Under the pieces are notes generated by a model. The model searched no databases and had not been told where the DNA came from. It worked only from the letters and a program-made list of their open reading frames with translations. From IMG/VR virus record IMGVR_UViG_2534681978_000024: a stretch of 4,302 nt of DNA, one strand, 5' to 3'. Positions 1-4,261 of the stretch are shown in pieces (the first letter of the stretch is position 1; the number at the start of each line of letters is the position of its first letter). The position numbers were made by a program, and so were the translations under genes. The DNA is from a virus (lineage: Duplodnaviria; Heunggongvirae; Uroviricota; Caudoviricetes).

Positions 1-38
1 GTATTTCGAGAAGGGGCTTGCAAGCTGAGTTAACAGAA

Positions 39-1097
39 ATGAAAACGGGGCTGGTGCTGTCCGGCGGCGGGGCGGTGGGCGCTTATCAGGCGGGAGTGGT
101 TAAGGCACTGGCAGAGTGTGGGGCACAGATCAGTATGGTTTCAGGGGCCAGTATCGGGGCTCTCAATGGTGCCATTATCGCGGCTTCTCCCGATTTGTCA
201 GAAGCTGCCGCACGCCTGGAGGCGCTCTGGGAGCATCTGGGGAATAATCAGGTGCTGTCGGTAAACCGATCGGTTTACTTTTCATTGCTGAAAAAATTGT
301 TCCAGGCAATGAACCTCTGCCAGATCCCCGGACGTGCAGGAGTACTGCTTACGACGCTTTTTCGCCATATATCGACAATCAACGGGTTCGAAAATCTGAT
401 GACTCAGCCGTTGTTGTCAGATGAGCCCCTGACAGCGCTGATGGATCATTATCTTGATACTGATGCTCTGGCAGACGGGCTACCGCTGTATGTGTCGCTG
501 TACCCCACAGAAGGAGGCATGCAGGATATTATTGACTGCATTCGTGCTGAACTGGGTGCCGGAACCACGAAAAACGCCGTTTTTCAGCATATCCAGAGCC
601 TGCCCCGCGGACAGCAGAAAGAGGCTCTGCTTGCGTCAGCCGCACTGCCCCTGCTGTTCCGTCCCCGTGAAGTTCAGGGAAAAATGTACGGTGATGGTGG
701 TATGGGAGGATGGCGAAATATGCAGGGAAATACCCCTGTAACGCCTCTGGTCGATGCCGGATGCAATATGGTGATTGTGACACATCTGAGTGACGGTTCT
801 TTATGGGATCGCCAGGCTTTTCCGGACACCACAATCCTTGAGATCCGTCCCCGGAAAAGACTGAAACATGCAGGTGATGGTGGCAACAGCGGCGGTCTGC
901 TCAGTTTTACATCGGCACATACCGACGCCTGGCGTCAGCAGGGCTATGAAGACACGATGCTGACGATGGAGCATATCCGGAAACCGCTGGCAGCACGTCA
1001 GGCACTGACCCGGTCAGAAACGGTGTTGCAGAAAAGTCTGGAGAAAACGGAAGAGGCAGATTCGGCACTGAGAAACGCGATGGCCCGACTTAAATAA
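39..1097 (+). CDS. Patatin-like phospholipase (serine lipid hydrolase, patatin/PNPLA family); start taken as ATG at 39, the ORF track starts at TTG 18 and the frame is open to the window edge
   Basis: Seen in translation: glycine-rich oxyanion loop GLVLSGGGAVGAYQAG close to the N-terminus, nucleophile elbow G-A-S-I-G (GxSxG, Ser codon agt at 150-152), and catalytic Asp in YGDGG (gat at 693-695). This trio is the established signature of the patatin Ser-Asp dyad fold. Single long ORF of 359 codons, with a roughly 100-residue C-terminal region lacking recognisable motifs. No strong Shine-Dalgarno before either candidate start. Confidence 0.85.
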   Translation: MKTGLVLSGGGAVGAYQAGVVKALAECGAQISMVSGASIGALNGAIIAASPDLSEAAARLEALWEHLGNNQVLSVNRSVYFSLLKKLFQAMNLCQIPGRAGVLLTTLFRHISTINGFENLMTQPLLSDEPLTALMDHYLDTDALADGLPLYVSLYPTEGGMQDIIDCIRAELGAGTTKNAVFQHIQSLPRGQQKEALLASAALPLLFRPREVQGKMYGDGGMGGWRNMQGNTPVTPLVDAGCNMVIVTHLSDGSLWDRQAFPDTTILEIRPRKRLKHAGDGGNSGGLLSFTSAHTDAWRQQGYEDTMLTMEHIRKPLAARQALTRSETVLQKSLEKTEEADSALRNAMARLK

Positions 1098-1113
1098 AGA
1101 CGCTCCGGAGAAA

Positions 1114-1139
1114 CGCCACCGCCTGTGGTGGTGTTTTTC
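1114..1139 (+). terminator. Weak candidate intrinsic terminator downstream of the phospholipase gene
   Basis: Short imperfect GC stem (gccacc ... ggtggt, about 5-6 bp) followed by a T5 run at 1135-1139, 17 nt after the stop codon at 1095-1097. The stem is short, so this is tentative. Confidence 0.35.
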
Positions 1140-1148
1140 TGGCTGGTG

Positions 1149-1160
1149 TTATTGAAAATA
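1149..1160. repeat. Left copy of an 11/12-identical direct repeat (ttattgaaaata) at the left edge of the AT-rich cassette
   Basis: ttattgaaaata at 1149-1160 versus ttactgaaaata at 3116-3127. Each copy sits immediately after a terminator T-run and at the point where base composition switches between GC-rich and AT-rich. Confidence 0.4.
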
Positions 1161-1225
1161 TTTTCAGATATATATTACCTGGACGATGGTTAAGATTAAT
1201 TTATTTAATTTTGGAGAGAAAACTC

Positions 1226-1684
1226 ATGAAACTGTTAAACATTCTTTTATCTGTTGTTTTAACTGTAAGTGCAACCGTCGCACAAGCAGAATCGGCATTG
1301 TGGAAGCGTAACAGTGTTGCCGGAACTGATATGTTCAGTATTGGTAATGTTTCTATTAACTGCACGACTAATCCAGAAGACAACAATTTGCTACCGCACT
1401 ATGTGTGGATTTACGGTCATACCCCCACCCCGCTAAATCAGTACGATTCTGATATCATTTTTATCATCAACGGTAAAGAGTATCCGGTCCCACCTGTCGA
1501 CGGAACACGAATGAATGAGAACAAATGGGTACACTTTATCGATGCTATCGGTGAAGCCACGAAGTTCGACGTTTTAGTAAACGGTAAGAAAGTCGACAGC
1601 TATACCACAAATATCAAAAATGTGAAAAAGACTTTGGGTAACAAATTCTACGGCAGTTGCTGGAGCACCTGGTTCCAGGAATAA
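1226..1684 (+). CDS. Hypothetical small secreted/periplasmic protein (about 152 aa precursor with N-terminal Sec-type signal peptide)
   Basis: ATG at 1226 preceded by Shine-Dalgarno GGAGAG (1213-1218, 7-nt spacer); the ORF track begins upstream at TTG 1211, but ATG 1226 with this RBS is the likelier start. N-terminus MKLLNILLSVVLTVSATVAQA-E has a positively charged n-region, hydrophobic core and AxA cleavage motif. Mature part about 131 aa with two Cys. AT-rich codon usage. No family recognised. Confidence 0.75.
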   Translation: MKLLNILLSVVLTVSATVAQAESALWKRNSVAGTDMFSIGNVSINCTTNPEDNNLLPHYVWIYGHTPTPLNQYDSDIIFIINGKEYPVPPVDGTRMNENKWVHFIDAIGEATKFDVLVNGKKVDSYTTNIKNVKKTLGNKFYGSCWSTWFQE

Positions 1685-1809
1685 TTGATAACGTGGTGTA
1701 AAACACCTCAGTTTAATTTAATACAGTGAGTGAAAATGAATATCATAAAAATATTTTCTGCTTCAGATGTCACATATTTTATTAACTGAATGATTAACAG
1801 GAGAATCAG

Positions 1810-2349
1810 ATGAACTGGCATTATGAAAAAAATGGTGTACGTTATGATAACGTAACAGAGGAAGATATTATTGAACGTATCCGCCGTGGTGAACTGAATG
1901 CATCAACACTGGTGTGGCAACAGGGCATGCTGGAATGGCAGCCAGTTTCAGCCACATCACTGGCGGAAATACTGAAACAAAGTGAAGTTCCTCCGGCCCT
2001 TCCGGGTCACCGCATTCCCGGAGGCGTTGTCTGGACGCTGGCATTTGCCCCTTTGATTGGATACATACTTGAGATGTGGACTGCCGGGCTGAACGGTATG
2101 TCATTTGAACGGGCTTATGATGCAGTCAGCGAAGGCCAGTACTGGTTTATCTCTCTGATTCTGAATATTGCTCTGGGATATCTGGATGAACGAAAACTCC
2201 GTAAATCTGGCGTGGATACCACAGCATTTGGCTGGCTGGCATGGTTGATCCCGGTTTATCTGTGGCGTCGGGCAAAAATCCTCGGGCAAAAACCTGCTTA
2301 TTTCTGGGTCTGGTTGGTTATGCTGATACTGGTGTTATTTACGGTCTGA
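1810..2349 (+). CDS. Membrane protein: N-terminal GYF-like (DUF4339-type) soluble domain fused to about four predicted transmembrane helices
   Basis: ATG at 1810 with Shine-Dalgarno AGGAG (1799-1803, 6-nt spacer). N-terminal roughly 50 aa (NWHYEKNGVRYDNVTEEDIIERIRRGELNASTLVWQQGMLEWQPVS) match my recollection of the bacterial GYF-like/DUF4339 consensus (W-x-Y ... NG ... TLVW-x-x-GM-x-x-W-x-P). C-terminal half has four hydrophobic stretches (VVWTLAFAPLIGYILEMW, YWFISLILNIALGYL, AFGWLAWLIPVYLW, AYFWVWLVMLILVLFTV) separated by charged loops. Confidence 0.8.
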   Translation: MNWHYEKNGVRYDNVTEEDIIERIRRGELNASTLVWQQGMLEWQPVSATSLAEILKQSEVPPALPGHRIPGGVVWTLAFAPLIGYILEMWTAGLNGMSFERAYDAVSEGQYWFISLILNIALGYLDERKLRKSGVDTTAFGWLAWLIPVYLWRRAKILGQKPAYFWVWLVMLILVLFTV

Positions 2350-2455
2350 TATTCTTTATCGCAGAGTTTACTAAATAATCAGGTTATTAGTGTTCTTAAC
2401 AGGTAAATGATGTTCATCATGGAACGGATATATTTTATTTGATTCAGGAGACAGT

Positions 2456-2604
2456 CAGAAACATAGTATAAATATATCGCCATGTTGAAGGTCATATCTT
2501 CAGGTATTTGTTTAATAAACAAGTCGGGGGTTAATCCTGACCTCTCGAGTGGATTATAAGTATTGCAGAAACAGTTTTTATACTTTTATTTAATATCAGA
2601 AACA
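2456..2604 (+). repeat. Three direct copies of the octamer CAGAAACA in the intergenic region upstream of the 2619 gene (candidate regulator-binding repeats)
   Basis: CAGAAACA at 2456-2463, 2566-2573 and 2597-2604, the last copy abutting the Shine-Dalgarno of the downstream gene. Seen directly in sequence; significance not computed. Confidence 0.3.
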
Positions 2605-2618
2605 ATGGAGTAATTATC

Positions 2619-3032
2619 ATGAAAAATATCATCACTATTTTAATGATTGCAGTTATCAGTTTCTTTACTGCTAATGTATCAGCAAACAATGCCGTTCCTT
2701 TACCAACCAACCTGACTGATGTTACTGACGGTACAGAATTCTGGTGTCAGGGTACTGATACTATCGACGGAGGTTGTGAATACCTGGGCACATCCAAAGA
2801 CATGCAATACGGTCTGGTACACGCCATGGGGGGTACAGCGTGCTGGGATGGTTTATACGGCGTAATTAATTTCTATACCGGTAAAGCCCAGACCATCAAA
2901 TACAACAACAATCAAAGTTGTGAAGGCAACATCACCGCCAGTTTCGTTACCCTGAAAAACGGTAAACCGGGCGTTAAACTTTACGACAATACGATTCATA
3001 AGGTTGTCGGGCTTGACGAAATCAAATTTTAA
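2619..3032 (+). CDS. Hypothetical small secreted protein with four cysteines (137 aa precursor, Sec-type signal peptide)
   Basis: ATG at 2619 with Shine-Dalgarno GGAG (2607-2610, 8-nt spacer). N-terminus MKNIITILMIAVISFFTANVSA-NN has a typical signal peptide with VSA cleavage motif. Mature part about 115 aa with four Cys (two possible disulfides). Followed by a strong intrinsic terminator. No family recognised. Confidence 0.8.
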   Translation: MKNIITILMIAVISFFTANVSANNAVPLPTNLTDVTDGTEFWCQGTDTIDGGCEYLGTSKDMQYGLVHAMGGTACWDGLYGVINFYTGKAQTIKYNNNQSCEGNITASFVTLKNGKPGVKLYDNTIHKVVGLDEIKF

Positions 3033-3082
3033 TGTATGAATTATAGTATCTTATCTGCGCGTTATTAATATCAAATGTAAAT

Positions 3083-3117
3083 AAAGCCCCGGCCATTATG
3101 GCAGGGGCTTTATTTTT
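3083..3117 (+). terminator. Rho-independent terminator for the 2619-3032 gene and the AT-rich cassette
   Basis: Hairpin aaagccccggcc / attat loop / ggcaggggcttt: an 11-bp stem with one G-A mismatch (3083-3094 pairing with 3100-3111), followed by a-ttttt (3112-3117), about 50 nt after the stop codon. Confidence 0.75.
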
Positions 3118-3127
3118 ACTGAAAATA
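3116..3127. repeat. Right copy of the 11/12-identical direct repeat (ttactgaaaata) at the right edge of the AT-rich cassette
   Basis: See left copy at 1149-1160. Located at the transition from AT-rich back to GC-richer sequence, overlapping the end of the terminator T-run. Confidence 0.4.
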
Positions 3128-3375
3128 CATGACGGGCTGTACATTACTTTTATTTTCCGAAGACCCTTTCTCACGCAAACAGACAGTTGCTGTCATAACA
3201 GCTTACCGCAATGTGTTTATCCAGGAATGCATTTCCGGCGGATTATCCGCAACGCGGAAGGTCAGCGACGCTGGCGCTGCCGGAATTCTGAACCCGATGT
3301 AGGCAAATAACTTAATGCGTGGCTCACCAGTGAAGGGCTTCCCGGACAATAAACCTCATTCATTTCACCCATCAG

Positions 3376-3406
3376 GCCGCGTCTTCTCCGGGAGACGCGG
3401 CTTTTT
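3376..3406 (+). terminator. Orphan strong terminator-like hairpin with no obvious upstream CDS (possible sRNA 3-prime end, or terminator of a decayed gene)
   Basis: Perfect 9-bp GC-rich stem gccgcgtct (3376-3384) pairing with agacgcggc (3393-3401), 8-nt loop, immediately followed by T5 (3402-3406). + strand orientation (T-run follows the stem; no A-run precedes it). Confidence 0.55.
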
Positions 3407-3442: not shown

Positions 3443-4261
3443 ATGCGATTAGCAAGTCGTTTTGGTTATGCGAACCAGATACGCCGTGACCGTCCGCTGA
3501 CACATGAAGAGCTGATGCACTATGTACCCGGTATTTTTGGGGAAGACCGGCATACCTCCCGCAGTGAACGCTATACGTATATCCCCACCATCACCGTGCT
3601 GGAAAGTCTGCAGCGGGAGGGCTTTCAGCCCTTCTTCGCCTGTCAGACCCGCGTACGTGACCCGGGCCGCCGGGAATACACCAAACACATGCTGCGTCTG
3701 CGGCGGGCCGGAGAGATAAACGGAGAACATGTCCCTGAAATCATTCTGCTCAACTCCCATGACGGTACCTCCAGCTACCAGATGCTGCCGGGTTACTTCA
3801 GATTCGTCTGCCAGAACGGCTGCGTCTGCGGTCAGTCTCTGGGAGAAGTGCGTGTTCCGCACCGGGGAAACGTGGTGGACAGGGTCATCGAAGGGGCTTA
3901 CGAAGTGGTGGGCGTTTTTGACCGGATTGAGGAAAAGCGTGATGCCATGCAGTCGCTGGTCCTGCCGCCACCGGCACGCCAGGCGCTGGCACAGGCGGCA
4001 CTGACTTACCGTTATGGTGACGAACATCAGCCCGTCACCACCACTGACATTCTGACGCCACGACGCCGGGAGGATTACGGTAAGGACCTGTGGAGTGCTT
4101 ATCAGACCATCCAGGAAAATATGCTGAAAGGCGGGATTTCCGGTCGCAGCGCTAAAGGAAAACGTATCCACACCCGTGCCATTCACAGCATCGACACGGA
4201 CATTAAGCTCAATCGCGCATTGTGGGTGATGGCAGAAACGCTGCTGGAGGGTATGCGCTGA
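3443..4261 (+). CDS. DUF932-family protein (YfjQ/YafZ-like, conserved in CP4-type prophage and integrative-element cargo regions)
   Basis: ATG at 3443 with strong Shine-Dalgarno AAGGAG (3431-3436, 6-nt spacer). 272-aa ORF beginning MRLASRFGYANQIRRDRPLTHEEL, which I recognise from memory as resembling the E. coli YfjQ/YafZ DUF932 family (not database-verified). Stop TGA at 4259-4261 overlaps a downstream ATG (4261-4263). Confidence 0.8.
   Translation: MRLASRFGYANQIRRDRPLTHEELMHYVPGIFGEDRHTSRSERYTYIPTITVLESLQREGFQPFFACQTRVRDPGRREYTKHMLRLRRAGEINGEHVPEIILLNSHDGTSSYQMLPGYFRFVCQNGCVCGQSLGEVRVPHRGNVVDRVIEGAYEVVGVFDRIEEKRDAMQSLVLPPPARQALAQAALTYRYGDEHQPVTTTDILTPRRREDYGKDLWSAYQTIQENMLKGGISGRSAKGKRIHTRAIHSIDTDIKLNRALWVMAETLLEGMR

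What the first reader, a model, noticed from the sequence alone, without database searches (positions are those of the whole stretch)
1810..2349. Unusual domain fusion: cytoplasmic GYF-like (DUF4339-type) domain fused to a four-helix membrane module
The N-terminal roughly 50 residues fit the bacterial GYF-like consensus, a small domain of unknown function often found as an N-terminal appendage. The remainder is a compact bundle of about four transmembrane helices rich in Trp and Tyr at the helix ends. Small membrane proteins with a soluble adaptor-like domain are common as abortive-infection effectors, immunity proteins or holin-like factors. Its central position between two exported proteins suggests it may anchor or gate them. 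This is hypothesis only.
Basis: partly seen in the sequence, partly recalled or inferred. Interest (0 to 1): 0.5.

Follow-up and report, generated by a model that had tools for sequence, protein, structure and literature searches.

The report
GYF-domain membrane adaptor on mobile islands
This is an intact E. coli island gene for a small inner-membrane protein with a cytoplasmic GYF peptide-binding domain joined to an unnamed but widespread membrane module; that layout is the usual one for bacterial GYF proteins, and its function is still untested.

Summary
Window 1810-2349 (+) is an intact 179-aa gene with a GYF_2 domain at aa 3-48 (Pfam E=5.4e-12, above the curated cut-off; fold confirmed). 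Four hydrophobic helices follow, and exported-protein genes lie on both sides.

- **Not unusual.** N-terminal GYF plus a membrane module is the published typical bacterial GYF architecture. Of the 148 best representatives of this membrane module, 109 carry GYF_2.
- **Not DUF2628.** The module matches no Pfam or NCBIfam model, no PDB sequence and no specific PDB fold. It is nevertheless large: 1025 clusters at 50% identity.
- **Probably not four spans.** Charge distribution and periplasmic-type domains fused after the last helix argue for N-in/C-out: three spans plus a short re-entrant helix.
- **The link to exported neighbours gains support.** The downstream 137-aa protein family sits next to the gene in about 29 of 33 enterobacterial species. 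Outside enterics the next ORF is envelope-like in 76% of loci. A Cys-bracketed periplasmic motif is either fused to the module or encoded downstream.
- **No support** for holin, immunity or known-defence membership.

The gene is recurrent cargo of integrative elements (CP4-57-like islands; DUF932/RadC/YqaJ elements) and is under purifying selection. Best reading: a membrane adaptor joining an exported partner to a cytoplasmic ligand. Modest interest.

The parts
1718..1746 (+). weak sigma-70-like promoter match upstream of the gene (TTAATA-17-TATCAT)
   Evidence: 9 of 12 matches, and no more such sites than shuffled sequence gives, so only a candidate
1799..1803 (+). Shine-Dalgarno AGGAG, 6 nt before the ATG
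   Evidence: read from the sequence
1810..2349 (+). 179-aa CDS: GYF_2 domain plus an unnamed membrane module (RefSeq: DUF4339 domain-containing protein)
1816..1953 (+). GYF_2 domain, aa 3-48 (invariant W3, R11, W36, W43); inferred cytoplasmic
1990..2004 (+). PPALP linker motif, aa 61-65 (P61, P62, L64 invariant in close relatives); candidate ligand for the protein's own GYF domain
   Evidence: the motif occurs in 79 of 92 GYF-bearing members but in 1 of 14 Zn-ribbon and 1 of 11 short-N members (Fisher 7e-14)
2023..2091 (+). TM1, aa 72-94 (W75, A78, P81, G84 conserved; E88 acidic in 63%)
2092..2136 (+). variable, acidic, K/R-poor loop with a short helix, aa 95-109; inferred periplasmic
2137..2187 (+). 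TM2, aa 110-126 (N119 95% conserved; D126 ~100% at its cytoplasmic end)
2185..2295 (+). conserved K/R-rich segment aa 126-162 (D126, L130, G134, D136, T137, P148-V-Y150, R154). It contains a short hydrophobic helix-break-helix at aa 140-152, inferred to be re-entrant or interfacial on the cytoplasmic face.
   Evidence: about 3 K/R per sequence on each side of only 10-13 hydrophobic residues; broken helices in AF2
2296..2346 (+). last TM helix, aa 163-179 (W168 99% conserved); C-terminus inferred periplasmic
   Evidence: homologues continue here into TonB_C or Cys-bracketed domains
2619..3032 (+). 137-aa exported protein ('FWC' family, PHROG 8968); candidate periplasmic partner
   Evidence: PHROG E=1.8e-37; homologues adjacent to the GYF-TM gene in about 29 of 33 enteric loci
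1226..1684 (+). 152-aa exported YfjT-family protein; a recurrent but positionally variable neighbour
   Evidence: 34% identity (E 3e-26) to the Yersinia protein carrying PF27224 YfjT; also adjacent in Mixta, Y. similis, Pseudomonas and Spirabiliibacterium loci

Best explanation
The gene encodes a small inner-membrane adaptor protein carried as accessory cargo by integrative mobile elements.

Shown:
- It is intact and under purifying selection.
- Its N-terminal 50 residues are a GYF_2 domain.
- Its C-terminal ~110 residues are a conserved polytopic module. The module defines a large unnamed family and is usually fused to GYF_2, less often to Zn-ribbons.

Inferred with good support: the topology is N-in/C-out. 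TM1 runs 72-94 and is followed by a short periplasmic loop. TM2 runs 110-126. A conserved, positively charged cytoplasmic-face segment follows, containing a re-entrant helix at 140-152. The last TM runs 163-179, so the C-terminus faces the periplasm.

Inferred mechanism: the module docks a periplasmic partner. That partner is fused to the C-terminus in some relatives and encoded immediately downstream in most others. In this window the candidate is the 137-aa exported protein at 2619-3032, with the YfjT-like protein possibly involved as well. On the cytoplasmic side the GYF domain binds a proline-rich peptide. This may be the protein's own conserved PPxLP linker (auto-inhibition or oligomerisation) and/or an unidentified cytoplasmic protein. 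The pair would therefore form a trans-membrane link.

Speculative: the physiological output. It is most likely an envelope function that benefits the element, such as exclusion, defence, signalling or surface modification. In most enteric relatives the gene is expressed from an operon headed by a WYL-HTH regulator.
For: - **Domain and fold:**
- **Family size and architectures:** 1025 clusters at E<=1e-3. Among the 148 best there are 109 GYF_2 and 15 Zn-ribbon members, with single SHOCT, FHA, DUF2510 and TonB_C cases.
- **Literature:** bacterial GYF domains are typically N-terminal to membrane modules. The GltJ GYF domain is cytoplasmic and binds a proline-rich sequence (PMC11135422). Flanking proline-rich stretches and GYF+TM+TonB-C architectures were noted in PMC2034487.
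- **Topology, charge:** K/R is rich on both sides of segment 140-152 and poor in loop 95-109.
- **Topology, N-terminus:** a Zn-ribbon sits directly N-terminal of TM1 in Herminiimonas.
- **Topology, C-terminus:** TonB_C follows the last helix in P0221 with no further hydrophobic segment. Cys-bracketed tails follow the last helix in P0085, P0096 and P0114 and in the phage and plasmid relatives.
- **Partner coupling, non-enterics:** the +1 ORF is envelope-like in 31 of 41 ORFs and 17 of 26 distinct families, against 9-42% at other positions (Fisher p=5e-4 by family).
- **Partner coupling, fusion/fission:** the same ~40-aa Cys...Cys motif is fused after the module in three clusters. It also forms the C-terminus of separate exported proteins at +1 to +3 in nine loci (phmmer E 2e-11 to 1e-4).
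- **Partner coupling, enterics:** the WYL-HTH > GYF-TM > FWC exported protein order recurs in about 29 of 33 species, with 25-66 nt gaps in Citrobacter.
- **PPxL motif:** it tracks GYF rather than the membrane module.
- **Mobile-element context:**
- **Selection:**
Against: - There is no experimental datum for this family: a full-text search for three RefSeq accessions of the protein found nothing, and the five papers that mention DUF4339 say nothing about it.
- Partner families are heterogeneous. At least 17 unrelated envelope-like families occur at +1, so a single conserved interface is not obvious.
- The Cys-bracketed fusion motif is absent from both neighbours in this window.
- This window lacks the WYL-HTH gene, and the gaps to its neighbours are long (125 and 269 nt).
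- Much of the enteric co-localisation could be inherited synteny of related islands.
- My ORF calling and signal-peptide and TM flags are crude heuristics.
- The topology rests on inference and on single fusion examples; AF2 draws a four-helix bundle.
- The strongly conserved polar residues (N119, D126, Y150, R154) could indicate an autonomous catalytic or ion-binding activity rather than a scaffold.
Confidence: 0.45

Rival explanations
1. It is a superinfection or entry-exclusion factor, or an abortive-infection effector, of the island. On this reading a small inner-membrane protein, with or without an exported or lipoprotein partner, blocks incoming phage or conjugative DNA or kills the infected cell. 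The analogy is to TraS/TraT, Eex, SieA/Imm or Cor/Llp.
For: - The gene is found exclusively on mobile elements: CP4-57-like islands, elements with integrase, AlpA, DUF932, YqaJ and RadC, a jumbo phage, and ~110-kb Salmonella and E. coli plasmids that also carry the module.
- WYL-HTH or divergent XRE regulators lie upstream, as in many defence loci.
- Distant homologues have defence-island-like neighbours: NERD helicase, PIN toxin-antitoxin, HNH and AAA_21.
- The exported partner diverges fast. win137 is 32% identical to Citro_136, while the GYF-TM proteins are 76% identical.
Against: - PADLOC gives no hit for the protein or its partners, and NCBIfam has no defence model for it.
- No homology to any known exclusion protein was detected by profile or fold search.
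- This rival overlaps with the best explanation, since it is a possible output of the adaptor.
Confidence: 0.2
2. It is an autonomous membrane enzyme, channel or transporter-like module. The conserved N119, D126, E127, D136, T137, Y150 and R154 would form an active or ion-binding site at the cytoplasmic face, with GYF acting only as a regulatory appendage. The exported neighbours would be coincidental island cargo.
For: - These polar residues show near-100% conservation across more than 140 diverse representatives.
- Module-only proteins exist (P0104, P0106, P0107 and others).
- There is a weak recurrent similarity to PF11667 DUF3267 ('putative zincin peptidase') in 8 of 148 members (best E 0.0016). 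The one located hit lies over the TM1-to-loop region.
Against: - No His or metal motif is conserved.
- The DUF3267 hits are far below the gathering score.
- The +1 enrichment and the fusion/fission evidence argue that the neighbours are not coincidental.
Confidence: 0.2
3. It is a holin-like lysis factor, or an immunity protein for the upstream patatin-like phospholipase.
For: The protein is small and hydrophobic, and a patatin gene lies 0.7 kb upstream.
Against: - There is no endolysin or lysis cassette.
- There is no charged C-terminal tail; the protein ends inside its last helix.
- The patatin gene closes a dynamin-RdcB-patatin operon and is followed by a terminator-like hairpin at 1117-1133.
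- Homologues in the other loci examined have no patatin neighbour.
Confidence: 0.03

Closest known systems
GltJ of Myxococcus xanthus (GYF + TM + TonB-C; the only bacterial GYF protein studied experimentally)
   Same: Both have a cytoplasmic N-terminal GYF_2-type domain tethered to an inner-membrane anchor. The GYF domain binds a proline-rich sequence. One relative of the present module (P0221) even carries a C-terminal TonB_C like GltJ.
   Different: GltJ has a Zn-ribbon, a long linker, a membrane anchor not detectably related to this module (the only similarity found is the GYF region, NCBIfam E 0.0039), and belongs to the Agl-Glt gliding machinery. The present protein has an unrelated polytopic module, no Zn-ribbon and no periplasmic domain, and sits on a mobile island.
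Small bacterial membrane modules that carry N-terminal GYF_2 or Zn-ribbon appendages (RDD, DUF2628, TM2 and similar). This grouping is from general knowledge of Pfam architectures.
   Same: The architectural logic is the same: a small soluble cytoplasmic adaptor followed by a compact polytopic module. The set of alternative N-terminal domains is also the same (GYF_2, Zn-ribbon, DUF2510, SHOCT, FHA).
   Different: There is no detectable sequence relationship. No such family appears in scans at E<=1 of the target or among the 25 most frequent families across 148 relatives. The conserved signature here is W-x-L-A-x-A-P ... L-N ... D-E-x-x-L-x-x-x-G-x-D-T ... P-V-Y-L-x-x-R ... W.
PHROG 12486 and phage or plasmid relatives (Erwinia phage pEa_SNUABM_30 gp28; the WP_060453917-type protein on ~110-kb Salmonella and E. 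coli plasmids)
   Same: They share the core of the membrane module: W75, D126, G134, P148-V-Y150, R154 and W168 are invariant in the alignment.
   Different: They lack the GYF domain. They carry a ~70-aa Cys-containing tail after the last helix. N119 is not conserved. Their function is unknown.
CP4-57 / CP4-6 / CP4-44-type cryptic elements of E. coli (the accessory cluster containing yfjR, yfjS and yfjT)
   Same: The slot is the same, between the YeeP/YfjP-like GTPase and the DUF932-antirestriction-RadC-CbeA/CbtA block. The companion families are also the same: WYL-HTH YfjR-like regulator, YfjS/YafY lipoprotein, YfjT and IrmA.
   Different: No K-12 record appears among the E. coli matches listed, and only 148 of 5426 complete genomes carry a DNA-level homologue. 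Here the slot additionally holds a dynamin-RdcB-patatin operon and lacks the regulator.

Membership tests
GYF_2 / DUF4339 (PF14237) | Profile match above the curated gathering score | tested here: met
   45.7 bits against a 25.8 cut-off, E=5.4e-12, aa 3-48 covering profile positions 1-46 of 50
GYF_2 / DUF4339 (PF14237) | GYF fold (small beta-sheet packed on a helix) | tested here: met
GYF_2 / DUF4339 (PF14237) | Binding of proline-rich peptides | not testable with these tools
   Only indirect evidence: the conserved Trp signature is retained (W3, W36, W43), and a PPxL motif co-occurs with GYF.
   No hit at E<=1 in the target. Not among the 25 most frequent families when 148 relatives are scanned at E<=1.
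Four-TM helical bundle | Four membrane-spanning segments, hence N- and C-termini on the same side | tested here: inconclusive
   AF2 shows four long helices. Only two segments exceed KD 1.6. Segment 140-152 has 10-13 hydrophobic residues flanked by about 3 K/R on each side. C-terminal fusions to TonB_C or disulfide-type domains, together with N-terminal Zn-ribbon or GYF domains, imply N-in/C-out, an odd number of spans. No dedicated topology predictor was available.
Known anti-phage defence, abortive-infection or holin families | Match to a curated defence model, or a lysis-cassette context | tested here: not met
   PADLOC gives no hits for the protein or candidate partners. NCBIfam gives none. 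No endolysin or toxin partner is present.
CP4-57-like integrative island cargo | Location between the YeeP-like GTPase and the DUF932/antirestriction/RadC/CbeA-CbtA block, next to a tRNA gene | tested here: met
   NZ_CP009050 context, with tRNA-Ser at the island end. The same slot is used in Yersinia, Citrobacter and other E. coli lineages.
Unnamed 'GYF-associated' membrane module family (defined here) | Conserved signature W75, A78, P81, G84 / N119 / D126, L130, G134 / P148-V-Y150, R154 / W168 | tested here: met
   All of these residues are present in the window protein. They are 90-100% conserved in 148 representatives.

The most novel reading that the evidence does not exclude
The GYF-plus-three-span module and a rapidly diversifying exported or lipoprotein partner would form a previously unrecognised two-part, envelope-spanning cassette of integrative mobile elements. 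In most enteric copies it is controlled by a WYL or XRE regulator. The periplasmic partner would sense or block something at the envelope, such as incoming phage or conjugative DNA, or a host surface cue. The conserved cytoplasmic-face D126/Y150/R154 site and the GYF-PPxLP switch would transmit that event inward.
Probability: 0.2. Interest if true: 0.6.

Novelty: new member of a known kind. Interest (0 to 1): 0.3.

Why it matters
If the adaptor model is right, it gives a first functional handle on two things. One is a very large family with no name: more than 1000 clusters at 50% identity, no Pfam model and no solved structure. The other is the bacterial GYF domain outside Myxococcus.

It would also explain why small, fast-evolving exported proteins (the YfjT, IrmA-like and 'FWC' families) accumulate in one slot of the CP4-57-type islands that many enterobacterial genomes carry.

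As it stands, the gene is an already annotated hypothetical protein with the standard bacterial GYF architecture. The immediate value is corrective: the fusion is not unusual and the module is not DUF2628. It also yields a short list of cheap experiments.

Tried and rejected
- **DUF2628, RDD or any Pfam/NCBIfam family for the membrane part.** No hit was found.
- **DUF3267.** A weak signal appeared in 8 of 148 members (best E 0.0016). The one located hit had E 0.63 over the TM1-to-loop region. I treat this as unconfirmed.
- **PDB sequence profile search with the module.** Zero hits at E<=10.
- **Foldseek against viral structures.** Nothing at E<=0.001.
- **The afdb50 library.** Not available.
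- **PADLOC.** Negative for the target and for candidate partners.
- **Literature on DUF4339 and on RefSeq accessions.** Nothing on this family. The stlA paper (PMC3861447) and the Xanthomonas 'pilin-like' DUF4339 paper (PMC10333488) gave nothing usable on this family.
- **Remnant of a lost exported-protein gene in the 269-nt spacer 2350-2618.** None was found.
- **Rfam on the window.** Only sub-threshold hits over the terminator-like hairpin near 3080-3117.
- **Holin or patatin-immunity readings.** Rejected on context.

Full report
**1. What is there.** The window is E. coli chromosomal DNA, 99.4% identical to several complete genomes. In NZ_CP009050 it lies in a tRNA-Ser-linked island that also carries the tellurite-resistance genes. 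The local gene order is:
- YeeP-like GTPase
- dynamin-family protein
- RdcB/YjcZ-family protein
- patatin-like phospholipase (window 18-1097)
- 152-aa exported protein (1226-1684)
- the target (1810-2349)
- 137-aa exported protein (2619-3032)
- a frameshifted DUF905 gene
- DUF932 (3443-4261)
- antirestriction, RadC, DUF987, CbeA/CbtA

The target is a clean 179-aa ORF with AGGAG 6 nt before the ATG. RefSeq annotates it as 'DUF4339 domain-containing protein'.

The rest of the protein is hydrophobic and helical. Hydropathy gives two strong peaks (aa ~69-92 and ~161-179) and two weaker ones (aa ~105-125 and ~133-152). AF2 gives helices at 72-94, 99-107, 112-132, 137-158 (broken at G141 and P148) and 163-178.

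The gene is real and constrained. dN/dS is 0.08-0.15 against four enterobacterial homologues, in both halves. Full-length homologues reach 37% identity in Burkholderiales.

**3. The fusion is not unusual.** I searched a profile of the C-terminal 120 residues alone against 1.84 billion representative proteins. It found 1025 clusters at E<=1e-3 and 507 at E<=1e-10. Among the best 148:
- 109 carry GYF_2 and 15 carry a Zn-ribbon.
- Single members carry FHA, SHOCT, DUF2510, DUF2007, Prok-RING or TonB_C.
- No Pfam family covers the membrane module itself.

In 80 species-representative genomes nearly every copy starts with the GYF signature. The exceptions are Zn-ribbon versions in Herminiimonas and a beta-proteobacterial MAG, and a few apparently N-terminally shortened ORFs such as Acinetobacter gyllenbergii.

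The literature already describes this architecture. Attia et al. [quoted passage not shown] They also show that the GltJ GYF domain is cytoplasmic and binds a proline-rich sequence. Balaji and Aravind 2007 (PMC2034487) noted GYF+TM and GYF+TM+TonB-C architectures and flanking proline-rich stretches.

**4. What the membrane module is and is not.** There is no hit at E<=1 in the target. It is also not among the 25 most frequent families when the 148 relatives are scanned at E<=1. The other searches were likewise negative:
- NCBIfam has nothing for the module.
- A profile search of all PDB sequences gives nothing at E<=10.
- Foldseek against viral models gives nothing significant.

The only profile link is PHROG 12486, of unknown function (E=4.5e-7). 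It corresponds to GYF-less relatives in an Erwinia jumbo phage and in ~110-kb Salmonella and E. coli plasmids.

Family-wide conservation defines a signature: W75, A78, P81 and G84 in helix 1; N119 in helix 2; D126 (100%), L130, G134, D136 and T137; P148 (100%)-V-Y150 and R154 (99%); and W168.

**5. Topology.** Three independent lines favour N-in/C-out with three spans plus a re-entrant or interfacial helix.
- **Charge.** The hydrophobic stretch at 140-152 is only 10-13 residues long, contains the invariant proline, and has about three K/R per sequence on each side. Loop 95-109 is K/R-poor and acidic.
- **N-terminal fusions.** These are cytoplasmic-type domains. A Zn-ribbon sits directly before helix 1 in Herminiimonas. 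GYF is cytoplasmic in GltJ.
- **C-terminal fusions.** These are periplasmic-type domains. TonB_C follows the last helix in P0221 with no further hydrophobic segment. Cys-bracketed domains follow it in P0085, P0096 and P0114 and in the phage and plasmid relatives.

No dedicated topology predictor was available, so this remains an inference.

**6. Genomic context.** In Enterobacterales the gene always occupies the variable slot of CP4-57/CP4-6-like islands. This holds in Yersinia, Citrobacter, other E. coli lineages and 33 species representatives. The usual order is WYL-HTH (YfjR-like) regulator, then GYF-TM, then one or two small exported 'FWC' proteins, then DUF905. In Citrobacter the gaps are 25-66 nt.

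The window's 137-aa neighbour belongs to this FWC family. It is 32% identical to Citrobacter's 136-aa protein, 25% to the 150-aa protein of ATCC 8739, and matches PHROG 8968 at E=1.8e-37. A member of the family is adjacent in about 29 of 33 enteric loci.

The 152-aa neighbour is a YfjT-family protein, 34% identical to the Yersinia PF27224 protein. It recurs next to the gene on either side in several genera. This window's island lacks the WYL-HTH gene.

Outside the enterics (47 loci) the gene lies in elements with DUF932, YqaJ, a Gp3-like recombination directionality factor, RadC, integrase and AlpA. A divergent XRE-type regulator lies within two ORFs upstream in about 19 of these loci.

The next downstream ORF is envelope-like (signal peptide, lipobox or TM) in 31 of 41 cases. 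That is 17 of 26 distinct families, against 9-42% at the seven other positions (Fisher p=5e-4 by family).

In E. coli, 148 of 5426 complete genomes carry a DNA-level homologue, and 77 have this exact arrangement.

**7. Fusion/fission evidence.** Three clusters (P0085, P0096, P0114) carry, after the last helix, a ~40-residue motif: C-[VL]-D-x-W-[VI]-x-A-Y-R-x-E-x-G-E-D-A-...-E-W-x-x-W-C-x-x-G-K-x-P. P0085 has six members on several contigs, and P0114 lies on a 160-kb contig. The same motif forms the C-terminus of separately encoded exported or membrane-anchored proteins at +1 to +3 in Xanthomonadales, Pseudomonas and Gordonia loci (phmmer E 2e-11 to 1e-4).

This supports two points: the C-terminus faces the periplasm, and the module is functionally coupled to downstream envelope proteins. 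The motif is absent from the window's own neighbours.

**8. The PPxLP linker.** P61, P62 and L64 are invariant in close homologues. Across the family, PPx[LIVMF] within 22 residues of helix 1 occurs in 79 of 92 GYF-bearing members. It occurs in only 1 of 14 Zn-ribbon members and 1 of 11 short-N members (Fisher 7e-14).

The motif therefore belongs with GYF and not with the membrane module. That makes it a candidate intramolecular or intermolecular GYF ligand. Balaji and Aravind raised this idea in general terms.

**9. Mechanism.** My best-supported reading has confidence ~0.45 for the mechanism and much higher for the anatomy. The protein is an inner-membrane adaptor whose module docks a periplasmic partner, fused in some relatives and encoded downstream in most. 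Here the candidate partner is the 137-aa FWC protein. The cytoplasmic GYF domain engages a proline-rich ligand, possibly its own linker.

The rivals are:
- an exclusion or abortive-infection function, which is also a possible output of the adaptor (~0.2);
- an autonomous enzyme or channel using the conserved D126/Y150/R154 face (~0.2);
- holin or patatin immunity (~0.03), rejected on context. The patatin operon ends at a terminator-like hairpin at 1117-1133, and the homologous loci examined lack a patatin neighbour.

PADLOC finds nothing for the protein or its partners.

**10. Verdict.** The sequence observation is correct. The 'unusual fusion' and DUF2628 ideas are not. The suggested link to exported neighbours is supported at family level but is untested biochemically. 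The gene is a new member of a known kind (bacterial GYF + membrane proteins). Its membrane module is widespread but unnamed and uncharacterised. Interest is modest at 0.3.

Noticed in passing
window 18-1097, and upstream in L001 16725-21090: The patatin-like phospholipase is the last gene of an apparent operon: dynamin-family GTPase (798 aa), RdcB/YjcZ-family protein, patatin. The stop and start codons overlap by 4 nt at both junctions. It looks like an island-borne paralogue of the rdcA/rdcB pair with a lipase attached. PADLOC gives only weak LeoBC/LeoA ('Dynamins' system) hits for the GTPases and weak CBASS-type phospholipase hits for the patatin N-terminus.
   Followed up: partly
window 2619-3032: The 137-aa exported protein belongs to a fast-diverging family of small Cys-containing secreted proteins with an 'FWC' motif (PHROG 8968, E=1.8e-37; no Pfam model). 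Family members are 25-32% identical to one another, while the adjacent GYF-TM proteins stay 74-82% identical.
   Followed up: partly
window 1226-1684: The 152-aa exported protein is a YfjT/YkfB-family member, 34% identical to a Yersinia PF27224 protein. The local Pfam copy gave only a sub-threshold Laminin_G_3 hit. Some RefSeq records name it 'YfjT/YkfB family phage-associated protein'.
   Followed up: partly
window ~3122-3303: RefSeq annotates a frameshifted DUF905 pseudogene here. Intact DUF905 genes follow the FWC genes in most related islands.
   Followed up: no
window 1200-1220, 2434-2454, 2585-2605: A 21-nt AT-rich motif, TTTATTTAATnnnGGAGA-like, precedes the start codons of both exported-protein genes. 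A third copy lies in the 269-nt spacer after the target, with no ORF behind it. No remnant of a lost gene was detectable there.
   Followed up: partly
window 1050-3300 compared with its flanks: Composition is mosaic. The flanking patatin and DUF932 genes are 52-60% GC. The two exported-protein genes and the spacers are 31-46% GC. The target gene itself is about 49-51% GC. This suggests the three small genes were assembled from different sources.
   Followed up: no
L050/L052/L053 +1, L068 +1, L080/L082 +2, L074/L075/L084 +2 or +3; proteins P0085, P0096, P0114: A ~40-aa Cys-bracketed motif, C[VL]DxW[VI]xAYRxExGEDA...EWxxWCxxGKxP, has no Pfam match in the two carriers scanned. It occurs either fused to the C-terminus of the membrane module or at the C-terminus of separate exported proteins encoded just downstream.
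   Followed up: partly
window 3057-3137 and 3374-3403: Two hairpins are present. A terminator-like hairpin follows the 137-aa gene; sub-threshold Rfam hits fall on it. A strong 13-bp-stem terminator-like hairpin lies just upstream of the DUF932 gene.
   Followed up: no
L013 7602-8054 (E. coli ATCC 8739): In another E. coli lineage the gene directly downstream of the GYF-TM homologue is an IrmA-family protein (PF18673, E=2.6e-42). IrmA is the interleukin-receptor-mimic protein of uropathogenic E. coli. This adds a host-interaction-type secreted protein to the set of neighbours.
   Followed up: no
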